Below, in pieces: positions 15,001 through 18,000 of a stretch of 64,000 nt of DNA (positions within the stretch are counted from its first letter, which is position 1; the number at the start of each line of letters is the position of its first letter). Made by a program: the position numbers. This DNA is from Escherichia coli. GTDB taxonomy: Bacteria > Pseudomonadota > Gammaproteobacteria > Enterobacterales > Enterobacteriaceae. The stretch is from NCBI RefSeq assembly GCF_003991155.1, contig NZ_CP031293.1; one strand, given 5' to 3'.

Positions 15001-18000
15001 GGCGTCTGGGTAAAACAATCATTAAGGAATCATCCACGTTAAGACATAAGCCTGAAGCGTGGTGATCACGCCCACCATACAGGTGAAGATCAGGCTGTGT
15101 TTGACGGTAAAGCGGAACAGATCTGACTCTTTGCCTACCAGGCCTACCGCCGCACAGGCGATAGCGATAGATTGCGGAGAGATCATCTTACCGGTGACAC
15201 CACCGGTGGTGTTGGCGGCAACCAACAACAGGTCAGAAACGCCAATTTGTTGTGCTGCAGTGGCTTGCAGCGCGGCGAACAGGGCGTTAGATGAGGTATC
15301 CGATCCGGTCAGGAAGACACCAAGCCAGCCGAGGAACGGCGAGAAGAAGGTGAATGCATGGCCGGTGTGCGCCAGTGCCAGCGCCAGCGTTGATGATAGT
15401 CCGGAATAGTTCGAGATAAAGGCGAACGCCAGCACCATACCGATGGAGTAGATAGGCAGAGCCAGTTCTTTCAGCGTGCTGCCGAAGGTGCTGATAGCGT
15501 CAGATGGTTTCATCTTCAGCCAGACAATCGAGAGCAGGGCAGCAAAAAGAATGGCGGTACCGGTGGCAGAGAACCAGTCAAACTTAAACACGGCGGCATA
15601 CGCTGTCGCTTCGCTGACCACTGGCGGCATACGGGCAACCAGTTTATCGAGGTACGGCACCGGAATGTTGATCACCCACTCATACAGCGCACCGCCTGAA
15701 GCGAACAGGGCTTTAAACGGCGGGATACTCCACAGCGTTACGGTGGCGGTCAGGAACAGGAACGGTGTCCAGGCGCGCAGCACCTGACCTGCCGTGTAAC
15801 CTGTGTGAGCCAGCGTCATATCAACCTGTGACGCCCCTAAGTCACCGAAGCGGAATACGCGCACTGGTTGCCAGCGTTTGAGGAACAGCGTCAGGCAGAG
15901 CAGTGATACCAGCGAAGAGATAATGTCTGGCAGTTCCGGCCCAATGAAGTTAGAGCTGAGGTATTGAGCAATGGCAAACGAACCACCTGCAACCACGACC
16001 GCAGGCCACGTCTCTTTGATACCGCGCCAACCGTCCATAATCGCCATGATCCAGAACAGCACGATAATGGTCATAAACGGCAGCTGACGCCCCACCATCT
16101 GACCAATCTCAAAGCTGTCGATGCCTGTTACCTGCCCGGCGACCAGAATCGGAATACCCATCGCGCCAAATGCCACTGGTGCGGTGTTAACAATCAGGCA
16201 CAGTCCGGCGGCGTAGAGAGGTTTAAAGCCCAGACCGACCAGCAATGCGGCGGTAATTGCTACCGGTGCGCCAAAGCCTGCGGCTCCTTCAAGGAAAGCG
16301 CCGAAACAGAAACCGACGATCAGCATTTGCAGGCGCTGGTCAGGGGTTATCGAAAGAATAGACGAGCGGATGATGTCAAACTGCCCGGTTTTCACCGAGA
16401 TCTTATAGACGAACACCGCTGCAATAATGATCCACGCGATGGGCCACAAACCGTAGAAGAAGCCATAAATCACCGAGGCCAGCGCGTTAGCGACCGGCAT
16501 TTTATAGAACAGCAAAGCCACGGCAAGGGCGATTGCCACCGTCCATGAGGCGGCGACATAACCTTTGAGTTTGAGCTTAATCAGCGCAAAGAAGAAAAAC
16601 AGGATGGGAAGCGATGCTATCAGGCTGGAAAGCCAGATATTCCCGGCGGGATCGTAGTTTTGTTGCCAGAGATTCATTGCAGGTCTCCTGCAGTCCACAC
16701 ACGCCGTGTAATGAGTCTGTTGCTCATCTCCTTGTCACACGTTGTGTAAAAGTGGCACTGCCAATTGTGTTGTGTAGGGATAATGACAATGGATAGTTAA
16801 CTAAATGTTATGCATTAGCAACATTGATGTGAGTTTTAATTGGGGAATTGTGAACCAGAGGTCAGATAAGCGAAGAATTGGTAGGGCCAATTCTTGTGGG
16901 GGGAGATGTCTGGTAAAGAAAAGGGCAATCCTCATCAGAGAATTGCCCTTAGTCACACTAACTTAATGGATCATTACCACTGAATACCGGCACCGAGTGC
17001 GGCGGAGTATTCACCCTGGCTATTGGTACTACCTTGTAATTTGTAGACCCAACGACCATTGGCGCTCACCATCGACACACCTAAAGCAACAGCCGATTCA
17101 CCGTTGTAAGTACCACCACCAATAGAGGCCATGCTGGCTCCCGGCGTGTAAGCCTGCGGCAGACCGGTCATTGCCATTGCAGAAGCGATACCACCACTCA
17201 GCTTGCTTTCAGTTTTGGACAGTTTGTTATCCATCTCAACCATGCGCTGATCGGTGTATTGCTTCGTTTCCTGCACACTTTGCTTCAACTGCGCATAGTT
17301 CACTGCGTCGTTGTTATTCACGCCAGCAGAAACGTTGCTGATGCGAGTCGTACCGCCATTGCCACCACCGAGGGTGATGTTACTGTAATCAACGGAACCG
17401 TCAGCTTTGGTGTCGTAGCGCACGCCGCCTGCTTCAGAAGACTTCAGTTGTGAAACGTTAACCGCATCGGTGGCATTAACACCGGCAGCAACGTTGGTGA
17501 TACGGCGCTGGTTGGTAGAAGAACCCACAGAGATGGTGTTTTCTTCGTTGGCCACGGAACCGGTACCCAGCGCGACGCTGTTGTCAGCGGCAGCAATGGA
17601 ACCAGAACCAATTGCAACACTGTCTTTACCCTGCGCGTTGGCATCTACGCCATCGGTGTTGGTCTTGAAGTATTTGGTGCTACCGGTGGTTACGATATCG
17701 CCAATGCCGTTTTCGATATTGGTAACGCGAGTATCCAGATTCGTCACCTGATTGTTCAGGTTAGTAATGCTCTGGGTATTCTGGGAAACCTGCGCGTCCG
17801 TTACTTTCAATTGACCCACGTTGACCGCATCGGTATCAGCCGAACCTGCTGCGACGTTGGTGATCTGACGTTGACCGTCTTCACTGCCGACAGAGAACTC
17901 ACCCACAGAGTTCTGCGGTGCGTCCATGTTGTAGGCGGTGTAGTTGGTCTGCGCACCACGGGTAGTCTGAGAGCCATTCCCCATTGCAATGCTGTTTGCA

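What the first reader, a model, noticed from the sequence alone, without database searches (positions are those of the whole stretch)
16753..16892. GntR-type palindromes in the lldP leader sit next to the 3' end of the inserted adhesin gene
The AATTGG-N5-CCAATT box and a second related element lie between the lldP start and the adhesin terminator. The insertion of the adhesin operon has therefore left the lld regulatory region intact but compressed the intergenic space to about 300 bp, raising the possibility of read-through or interference between the two units.
Basis: partly seen in the sequence, partly recalled or inferred. Interest (0 to 1): 0.3.

Follow-up and report, generated by a model that had tools for sequence, protein, structure and literature searches.

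The report
Known LldR operators upstream of lldP
The two palindromes are the well-known LldR operator sites O1 and O2 of the E. coli lactate operon. They sit behind the terminator of a neighbouring adhesin operon that is old in Escherichia and was deleted in K-12, so the arrangement is ordinary.

Summary
A perfect AATTGG-N5-CCAATT lies at 16876-16892 and a one-mismatch copy at 16750-16766. They are the only two such sites in 64 kb, and both are letter-identical to the published K-12 LldR boxes O1 and O2.

Their positions (about -215 and -89 from the lldP ATG) and their 126-bp spacing are conserved across Enterobacteriaceae. A strong intrinsic terminator (hairpin 16921-16950, minus strand, then UUUUCUUU) ends the upstream adhesin gene 28 bp before O1.

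K-12 is collinear with the window from lldP through this hairpin, so nothing in the regulatory region was compressed. The 296-bp spacer is longer than the yibL-lldP spacer in most adhesin-less genera (median about 272 bp). It matches the adhesin-lldP spacer in Citrobacter braakii (294 bp) and Enterobacter wuhouensis (292 bp). K-12 (371 bp) and O157 (367 bp) are longer only because REP/BIME repeats sit beyond the hairpin.

The sadB-adhesin operon is ancestral in Escherichia. K-12 carries a published deletion and keeps the orphaned adhesin terminator. Read-through cannot be measured here, but nothing suggests it is unusual.

The spacer also gives a sub-threshold, antisense match to the Rfam candidate sRNA STnc380. 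Verdict: already known, low interest.

The parts
16876..16892 (-). LldR operator O1 (sense strand AATTGGCCCTACCAATT); also reported as a PdhR box
   Evidence: Perfect match. The string is identical to the K-12 LldR box in PMC10272880 Table 1 and to the PdhR box in PMC7660256. It is conserved at -211..-218 from the lldP ATG in nearly all Enterobacteriaceae loci examined.
16750..16766 (-). LldR operator O2 (sense strand AATTGGCAGTGCCACTT)
   Evidence: One mismatch to the palindrome. The string is identical to the second K-12 LldR box in PMC10272880. It is conserved at -86..-92 in most genera, with 125-126 bp spacing from O1.
16796..16810 (+). ArcA-box-like direct repeat GTTAACTAAATGTTA overlapping the core promoter
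   Evidence: Read directly from the sequence. The consensus is recalled from memory. ArcA repression of lldPRD is documented (PMC3798270; PMC8689689). This block is among the most conserved in the family alignment.
16678..16787 (-). Presumed lldP 5' UTR, with the transcription start at about 16787
   Evidence: Inferred. O1 at -105..-89 and O2 at +22..+38 are recalled from Aguilera 2008, which could not be retrieved. That numbering reproduces the observed 126-bp start-to-start spacing exactly. PMC8689689 places O1 upstream of -80 and O2 downstream of +1.
16911..16950 (-). Intrinsic terminator of the adhesin operon: 13-bp stem, 4-nt loop, UUUUCUUU tract
   Evidence: Terminator scan. RNA fold -23.7 kcal/mol, z = -3.9. 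The sense strand is 4.1 kcal/mol more stable than the antisense strand because of a G-U pair, and the U tract exists only on the sense side. The outer stem is shared with the C. braakii adhesin terminator and the inner 4 bp change compensatorily. The hairpin is retained in K-12.
15022..16677 (-). lldP, L-lactate permease
   Evidence: Pfam Lactate_perm, E = 1e-235; RefSeq annotation.
14246..15022 (-). lldR, GntR/FadR-family regulator that binds O1 and O2
   Evidence: Pfam GntR + FCD domains. NCBIfam LldR equivalog, 498 bits against a cutoff of 311.
13059..14249 (-). lldD, L-lactate dehydrogenase
   Evidence: Pfam FMN_dh; RefSeq annotation.
16974..21623 (-). Trimeric autotransporter adhesin, positional orthologue of UpaG/EhaG/SadA (1549 aa, intact)
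   Evidence: Pfam ESPR, YadA_head, YadA_stalk and YadA_anchor. Annotated as a YadA-like family protein in the identical record NZ_CP029747.1.
21667..22350 (-). sadB-like inner-membrane lipoprotein gene, first gene of the adhesin operon
   Evidence: Matches PDB 4C47 (SadB) at E = 6.5e-70. Annotated DUF3251. No Pfam or NCBIfam hit at E <= 0.001.
22909..23271 (-). yibL, the gene that directly abuts the lldP regulatory region in K-12 and in most Enterobacteriaceae

Best explanation
Window 16750-16892 is the canonical LldR-controlled regulatory region of the lldPRD operon. LldR dimers bind O1 (16876-16892) and O2 (16750-16766). The two sites flank a weak, activator-dependent promoter with a presumed start near 16787.

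According to the published K-12 model, the two bound dimers interact without lactate, loop the DNA and repress. With L-lactate, O2 is released and O1-bound LldR activates transcription. ArcA, through a box overlapping the core promoter, and PdhR, at O1, add anaerobic and pyruvate control.

Immediately upstream, 28 bp from O1, a strong intrinsic terminator ends the co-directional sadB-adhesin operon and insulates the lld promoter. This layout is the basic form of the adhesin cassette. It is ancestral in Escherichia and is also seen in C. braakii and Ent. wuhouensis. It is not a recent insertion. K-12 deleted sadB and the adhesin gene but kept the terminator. Other E. coli lineages added REP/BIME repeats between the adhesin stop codon and the hairpin.

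Shown here: the sites, their identity to the K-12 operators, family-wide conservation, the terminator structure, collinearity with K-12 and the deletion relics. Inferred: the transcription start position, LldR binding in this particular strain, and efficient termination.
For: - O1 and O2 are exact and are the only hits at one mismatch or fewer. They are identical to the published K-12 LldR boxes, which bind LldR in gSELEX and gel shift. PdhR is reported to bind at O1.
- The looping and activation model and ArcA repression are published.
- Cognate lldR is present in the operon.
- O1 and O2 positions and spacing are conserved in about 60 species of Enterobacteriaceae. The conserved block begins right at O1.
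- Terminator evidence.
- K-12 is collinear through the hairpin. The adhesin 3' end lies next to lldP in 4149 of 5426 complete E. coli genomes. The K-12-type junction occurs in 1262 of 5426.
- E. whittamii carries an internal adhesin remnant, and K-12's spacer is collinear with the adhesin-lldP spacer of 2-REP strains.
- The K-12 deletion and the conserved mtl-sadBA-lld location are published. upaG is reported as predating E. coli divergence.
- Adhesin-lldP spacers are 294 bp in C. braakii and 292 bp in Ent. wuhouensis, against 296 bp here.
Against: - The simple sigma-70 scan finds no promoter in 16500-17200. This fits an activator-dependent promoter, but the core elements are therefore not confirmed here.
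- The transcription start and operator numbering come from memory of a paper I could not retrieve.
- There are SNPs relative to K-12 in the presumed -10/discriminator region (16792, 16795) and at 16813 and 16817. Their effect is unknown.
- Termination efficiency was not measured.
- At family level most species lack the adhesin. The cassette was therefore gained at some deeper point, or lost many times.
Confidence: 0.88

Rival explanations
1. One reading: the adhesin operon was inserted next to lldP and squeezed the intergenic region, so adhesin transcription reads through into lldPRD or interferes with it.
For: - The two units are co-directional, and only about 20 bp separate the end of the U tract from O1.
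- Most Enterobacteriaceae species have yibL directly next to lldP, so the cassette was an insertion at some deep point.
- The window's spacer (296 bp) is shorter than K-12's (371 bp).
Against: - The region from lldP to the hairpin is collinear with K-12. The length difference lies in REP/BIME sequence distal to the hairpin.
- Spacers in adhesin-less genera are mostly shorter, 252-287 bp.
- K-12 is the deletion derivative.
- The terminator is strong and strand-specific.
- The identical terminator-O1 geometry follows yibL in K-12, where lldPRD regulation is well behaved in published work.
Confidence: 0.08
2. The spacer encodes an antisense small RNA homologous to Salmonella STnc380. It would be transcribed on the + strand from about 16851 to 16957, across O1, ending at the hairpin.
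For: - Rfam RF02055 matches 16851-16957 (+) over the full model at E about 3e-4.
- The same family scores 108.7 bits in the equivalent antisense position of C. braakii L034.
- A TTTAAT motif lies shortly upstream of the match start (read).
Against: - The score of 30.9 bits is below the gathering threshold of 60.
- The matched helices are the O1 DNA palindrome and the sense-strand terminator.
- On the + strand the hairpin has a C-A mismatch, is 4.1 kcal/mol weaker, and is followed by AGTCACAC with no U tract.
- The TTTAAT motif lacks the A at -11, and no promoter was called.
- No paper on STnc380 was found in the library.
Confidence: 0.07
3. The palindromes are chance AT-rich repeats with no regulatory role.
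For: At three mismatches or fewer the pattern is not enriched in the window.
Against: - They are the only two hits at one mismatch or fewer, 126 bp apart, upstream of lldP.
- They are identical to experimentally bound K-12 sites.
- They are conserved in position across the family.
Confidence: 0.01

Closest known systems
LldR operators O1/O2 of the E. coli K-12 lldPRD promoter (Aguilera et al. 2008; Anzai et al. 2023, PMC10272880)
   Same: Both 17-bp boxes are letter-identical. They have the same distance from the lldP ATG (-215 and -89), the same 126-bp spacing, the same downstream operon lldP-lldR-lldD, and the same hairpin 28 bp upstream of O1.
   Different: There are nine SNPs in the 275-bp block, four of them between the operators (16792, 16795, 16813, 16817). 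The upstream gene is the adhesin rather than yibL. K-12's partial BIME is absent.
sadBA / upaG / ehaG trimeric autotransporter operon located between the mtl and lld operons (Grin et al. 2014, PMC3953254; Chaudhuri et al. 2010, PMC2808357)
   Same: The gene order is the same: mtlR-yibL-sadB-adhesin-lldP. A SadB homologue is present (PDB 4C47, E = 6.5e-70). The adhesin has ESPR, YadA head, stalk and anchor domains.
   Different: The passenger domain and the sadB promoter region are allelic variants. SadB is 66% identical to the O157 copy, and the first 200 adhesin residues are 58% identical. The spacer to lldP lacks the REP (O157) or BIME (B2) repeats.
Rfam RF02055 STnc380 (enterobacterial candidate sRNA)
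   Same: It covers the orthologous adhesin-lldP spacer. The family consensus contains the O1 box and the adhesin terminator hairpin. It scores above threshold in C. braakii at the same position.
   Different: The window scores 30.9 bits against a gathering score of 60. The family is oriented antisense to both genes, an orientation in which the E. coli hairpin is weaker and has no U tract. No evidence of a transcript was obtained here.
PdhR/GlcC-type FadR-subfamily GntR boxes (TGGT-N3-ACCA core)
   Same: O1 is also listed as a PdhR box (13 of 14 positions), with 3.3-fold derepression of lldPRD mRNA in a pdhR mutant.
   Different: LldR is the cognate, highest-affinity binder at this promoter.

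Membership tests
LldR (GntR/FadR-family) operator pair of lldPRD | 17-bp palindromic box matching AATTGG-N5-CCAATT / AAnTGGTCnGACCAnTT | tested here: met
   O1 has 0 mismatches and O2 has 1. Both strings are identical to the K-12 boxes listed in PMC10272880.
LldR (GntR/FadR-family) operator pair of lldPRD | Two boxes flanking the promoter at a conserved spacing, upstream of lldP | tested here: met
   The start-to-start spacing is 126 bp, with sites at -215 and -89 from the ATG. The same layout is seen across about 60 species.
LldR (GntR/FadR-family) operator pair of lldPRD | Cognate regulator gene present | tested here: met
   lldR at 14246-15022 has GntR + FCD domains and scores 498 bits against the NCBIfam LldR equivalog.
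LldR (GntR/FadR-family) operator pair of lldPRD | LldR binding and lactate-dependent regulation | not testable with these tools
   This is shown for the identical K-12 sequences in the literature, not for this strain.
Rho-independent (intrinsic) terminator | GC-rich stem-loop followed directly by a U tract on the transcribed strand | tested here: met
   The stem has 13 bp (6 G-C pairs), the loop 4 nt, and the tract is UUUUCUUU. The fold energy is -20.9 kcal/mol on the sense strand and -16.8 on the antisense strand.
Rho-independent (intrinsic) terminator | Transcripts actually end there | not testable with these tools
   No 3'-end data could be retrieved.
sadBA-type trimeric autotransporter operon | SadB lipoprotein gene directly upstream of a TAA gene with a YadA anchor, located between the mtl and lld operons | tested here: met
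   location as described in PMC3953254.
Rfam RF02055 STnc380 | Covariance-model score at or above the gathering threshold (60 bits) | tested here: not met
   The window scores 30.9 bits. C. braakii L034 scores 108.7 bits at the orthologous site.
REP/BIME element in the spacer | GCC(G/T)GATGCG-type palindromic units between the upstream gene and the hairpin | tested here: not met
   These units are present in K-12, O157 and ATCC 25922 but absent from the window.

The most novel reading that the evidence does not exclude
The adhesin-lldP spacer could be more than a passive boundary. Partial read-through of the adhesin terminator, or an antisense STnc380-like RNA crossing O1, might couple adhesin expression to lactate uptake. 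The REP/BIME presence-or-absence polymorphism between E. coli lineages (none, one REP, or a BIME) might tune that coupling. More broadly, the yibL-O1 junction may be a family-wide hotspot where different adhesin cassettes are swapped in: trimeric autotransporter operons or chaperone-usher fimbriae.
Probability: 0.07. Interest if true: 0.35.

Novelty: already known. Interest (0 to 1): 0.1.

Why it matters
It matters little. The operators, their mechanism, the location of the adhesin operon and the K-12 deletion are all published. The useful outcome is corrective. The K-12 reference is the derived state at this locus, and its 'yibL terminator' is an orphaned adhesin terminator. Spacer length differences among E. 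coli strains reflect REP/BIME content rather than pressure on the lld promoter. Lactate-biosensor designers who use the K-12 'lldP promoter fragment' may wish to know that its distal ~100 bp are a terminator plus a BIME relic.

Tried and rejected
- Aguilera 2008, Totsika 2012 and Valle 2008 could not be retrieved. The operator numbering and TSS (Aguilera 2008) therefore rest on memory, as does H-NS repression of upaG/ehaG (Totsika 2012); Valle 2008 is not otherwise relied on.
- I looked for published 3'-end or read-through data on the yibL-lldP junction. No paper in the library mentions yibL, lldP and terminator together. There is no yibL or lldP entry in the held supplements of Adams 2021, and no supplements are held for Dar & Sorek 2018.
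- The sigma-70 scan found no promoter in 16500-17200, so the core promoter could not be confirmed by consensus.
- I first expected the adhesin to be ancestral to the whole family because of Salmonella sadA. The YibL scan showed that most genera lack it, so I restrict the 'ancestral' claim to Escherichia.
- I considered the hairpin to be the ancestral yibL terminator with the adhesin inserted upstream of it. I rejected this for two reasons. Adhesin-less Citrobacter and Salmonella have unrelated hairpins. The E. coli hairpin is homologous to the adhesin terminator of C. braakii and to the STnc380 consensus.
- I considered the motif at 16838-16852 as a third LldR box. I rejected it because it matches the box poorly and is not conserved.
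- The literature search for STnc380 returned only STnc3800.

Full report
**What is in the sequence**

All genes here are on the minus strand. The order is yibL (22909-23271), a sadB-like lipoprotein gene (21667-22350), and a 1549-aa trimeric autotransporter adhesin (16974-21623). These are followed by lldP (15022-16677), lldR (14246-15022) and lldD (13059-14249).

The window is 100% identical over the 501-bp query to E. coli 2016C-3878, and the annotated gene layout of that record's locus matches the window's ORFs. The adhesin-lldP spacer is 296 bp (16678-16973). It contains the following features:

- A perfect AATTGG-N5-CCAATT at 16876-16892.
- A one-mismatch copy at 16750-16766.
- A 13-bp-stem hairpin at 16950..16921 (minus strand) followed by a T-rich tail.

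At one mismatch or fewer, the two palindromes are the only hits in 64 kb. The chance expectation is 0.44, and 3 of 100 shuffles gave two or more hits anywhere. At three mismatches the pattern is not enriched.

**What the palindromes are**

On the lldP sense strand the boxes read AATTGGCCCTACCAATT and AATTGGCAGTGCCACTT. These exact strings are the two LldR boxes listed for the K-12 yibL-lldP spacer. That site gave the strongest LldR gSELEX peak in the genome, was confirmed by gel shift, and is stated to coincide with the two sites of Aguilera et al. 2008 (PMC10272880). O1 is also a PdhR box, and lldPRD mRNA rises 3.3-fold in a pdhR mutant (PMC7660256).

The published model has two states. Without lactate, LldR dimers at O1 and O2 interact and sequester the promoter. 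With lactate, O2 is vacated and O1-bound LldR activates transcription. ArcA represses under anoxia through a site between the operators (PMC5412874; PMC8689689; PMC3798270).

The window's lldR encodes a GntR + FCD protein that scores 498 bits against the NCBIfam LldR equivalog.

From memory of Aguilera 2008, which could not be retrieved, O1 spans -105..-89 and O2 spans +22..+38. That numbering reproduces the observed 126-bp spacing exactly and places the transcription start near 16787.

GTTAACTAAATGTTA at 16796-16810 resembles the 15-bp ArcA box (consensus recalled from memory) and overlaps the core promoter. The consensus promoter scan finds nothing here, which is expected for an activator-dependent promoter.

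**Conservation across the family**

A YibL-based scan of one genome per species returned 80 loci. I classified them with tblastn and a motif scan.

- O1 lies at -211..-218 and O2 at -86..-92 from the lldP ATG in nearly every species that has lldP next to yibL. The 125-126 bp spacing is preserved.
- The family alignment shows that conservation begins within a few bp upstream of O1. Everything distal to O1 is lineage-specific.
- A simple scan finds a terminator-like hairpin within 100 bp upstream of O1 in 33 of 69 sequences scanned; the strong ones (about -14 to -20 kcal/mol) end 14-38 bp from O1, and several weak calls lie at 41-79 bp. Many of the remaining loci have GC-rich hairpins without a clean T tract.

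**The 'insertion' and 'compression' claims**

K-12 (DH1) aligns with the window without gaps from lldP to 16952, just past the hairpin: 275 bp at 96.7% identity. No part of the regulatory region has been squeezed.

Spacer lengths differ only in what lies beyond the hairpin.

| Strain or type | Spacer to lldP | What lies beyond the hairpin |
|---|---|---|
| Window | 296 bp | nothing |
| O157 | 367 bp | a 71-bp REP-containing segment flanked by a 10-bp direct repeat |
| ATCC 25922 (B2, upaG) | 411 bp | a full BIME |
| K-12 (spacer from yibL) | 371 bp | part of the same BIME, then the yibL stop codon 13 nt further on |

For comparison, the 52 adhesin-less non-Escherichia species have yibL-lldP spacers with a median of about 272 bp, and 38 of them are 287 bp or shorter. 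The adhesin-lldP spacer is 294 bp in C. braakii and 292 bp in Ent. wuhouensis. The window's 296 bp is therefore the basic form of the cassette, not a compressed one.

**Direction of the event**

Within Escherichia, the adhesin-less forms all look like deletions.

- E. whittamii's 610-bp spacer holds sequence normally found just downstream of yibL in adhesin-bearing strains. It also holds a ~200-bp internal fragment 84% identical to ehaG, and the 3' half of the hairpin.
- Escherichia sp. MOD1-EC7003 keeps sequence that lies downstream of the adhesin gene in E1V33.
- K-12's spacer (nt 13-372) is collinear at 94% with the adhesin-lldP spacer of a 2-REP strain. Its BIME is truncated relative to ATCC 25922.

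The E. coli hairpin also belongs to the adhesin cassette. It shares the outer stem AAGGGCAAT/ATTGCCCTT with the C. braakii adhesin terminator and with the Rfam STnc380 consensus, and the inner four base pairs change compensatorily. Adhesin-less Citrobacter and Salmonella arizonae/diarizonae have unrelated yibL terminators. In adhesin-bearing alleles, yibL has its own separate hairpin just downstream.

The literature agrees on the following points:

- sadA, upaG and ehaG occupy a conserved position between the mtl and lld operons in Escherichia, Salmonella and Shigella.
- upaG is present in E. albertii and across the E. coli phylogeny (PMC2808357).

In complete genomes, 4149 of 5426 have the adhesin 3' end next to lldP, and 1262 have the K-12-type junction.

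At family level, most genera lack the cassette. Some carry other cargo at the same site: a chaperone-usher fimbrial operon in Ent. hormaechei (confirmed by Pfam), with the same ORF-size pattern in L023 and L015, and an ABC transporter in L074. The cassette was therefore gained at some deeper point.

**Read-through and interference**

The terminator has 13 base pairs (six G-C, one G-U), a 4-nt loop and the tract UUUUCUUU. The fold energy is -23.7 kcal/mol for the 71-nt context, with z = -3.9.

The hairpin is strand-specific. The sense strand folds at -20.9 kcal/mol and the antisense strand at -16.8, because the G-U pair becomes a C-A mismatch on the other strand. Only the sense side has a U tract.

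The hairpin is retained, at least in part, in at least 5391 of 5426 complete E. coli genomes, whichever gene lies upstream. The terminator-to-O1 geometry is identical in K-12, where lldPRD regulation has been studied extensively. I infer that read-through is low and not peculiar to this strain. I could not find 3'-end data to prove this.

The AT-rich sadB promoter region (38-43% GC) fits the H-NS silencing reported for upaG/ehaG (Totsika 2012, from memory). That would further limit transcription into this junction under laboratory conditions.

**An unexpected database match**

Rfam RF02055 (STnc380, a Salmonella-derived candidate sRNA) matches 16851-16957 on the + strand, antisense to both genes. 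The match covers the full model at 30.9 bits, below the gathering score of 60, with E about 3e-4. At the orthologous spacer of C. braakii it scores 108.7 bits.

The family consensus is essentially the O1 box plus the adhesin terminator. In E. coli the hairpin is poorer in that orientation and lacks a U tract. I regard an antisense sRNA here as unlikely but untested.

**Verdict**

The elements are the known LldR operators O1 and O2. The regulatory region is intact. The 'insertion compressed the spacer' reading is not supported. The finding is already known and of low interest.

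Noticed in passing
window 16851-16957 (+); L034 15616-15722 (-): Rfam RF02055 STnc380 (candidate enterobacterial sRNA) corresponds to the adhesin-lldP spacer in antisense orientation. Its consensus contains the LldR O1 box and the adhesin terminator. It scores 30.9 bits in the window (below the gathering score of 60) and 108.7 bits in C. braakii.
   Followed up: partly
window 16952/16953; L002 7354-7424; L084 about 8020-8176; L001 3354-3449: There is a REP/BIME presence-or-absence polymorphism between the adhesin stop codon and the terminator. The window has none, O157 has a 71-bp REP segment flanked by a 10-bp direct repeat (CTAAGGGCAA on the sense strand), and B2 strains have a full BIME. 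K-12 has a truncated BIME abutting yibL. About 3 of 30 evenly sampled E. coli genomes are of the window's no-REP type.
   Followed up: partly
L080 10395-15279; L023 10522-15412; L015 11405-16291; L074 10989-12550: The yibL-lldP junction is a recurrent cargo site in Enterobacteriaceae. Several genera carry a four-gene chaperone-usher fimbrial operon on the opposite strand (Pfam-confirmed in L080). One Enterobacter carries ABC-transporter genes. In L054, L080 and L015 no O1 box was detected.
   Followed up: partly
L009 10518-10719 (E. whittamii): A ~200-bp internal fragment of the adhesin gene (84% identical to O157 ehaG) survives in the otherwise adhesin-less yibL-lldP spacer. It is a clear deletion scar.
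   Followed up: yes
window 16849-16864: TGTGA-N6-GGTCA resembles a CRP site centred about 69.5 bp upstream of the presumed lldP start. The GGTTCACA block is conserved across the family. This might relate to the glucose repression of lldPRD reported in PMC8689689.
   Followed up: no
window 16882-16894 vs 16939-16951: The O1 left half with its flank (TAGGGCCAATTCT) is 85% complementary to one arm of the terminator (AGAATTGCCCTTA). This is probably chance, and it is seen only in Escherichia.
   Followed up: no
window 22351-22908: The sadB upstream (promoter) region is AT-rich (38-43% GC). It is almost unalignable between this strain and O157, starting immediately after the yibL stop codon. A separate hairpin, GCTCCTGCTGGCACATGCAGGAGC at about 22841-22864 (minus strand), follows yibL.
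   Followed up: partly
window 21667-22350: The SadB homologue matches PDB 4C47 at E = 6.5e-70 but gives no Pfam or NCBIfam hit at E <= 0.001, although RefSeq labels it DUF3251.
   Followed up: no
window 16792, 16795, 16813, 16817: Four SNPs relative to K-12 and O157 lie between O1 and O2, in the presumed -5, -8, -26 and -30 positions. They are shared with B2 strain ATCC 25922.
   Followed up: no
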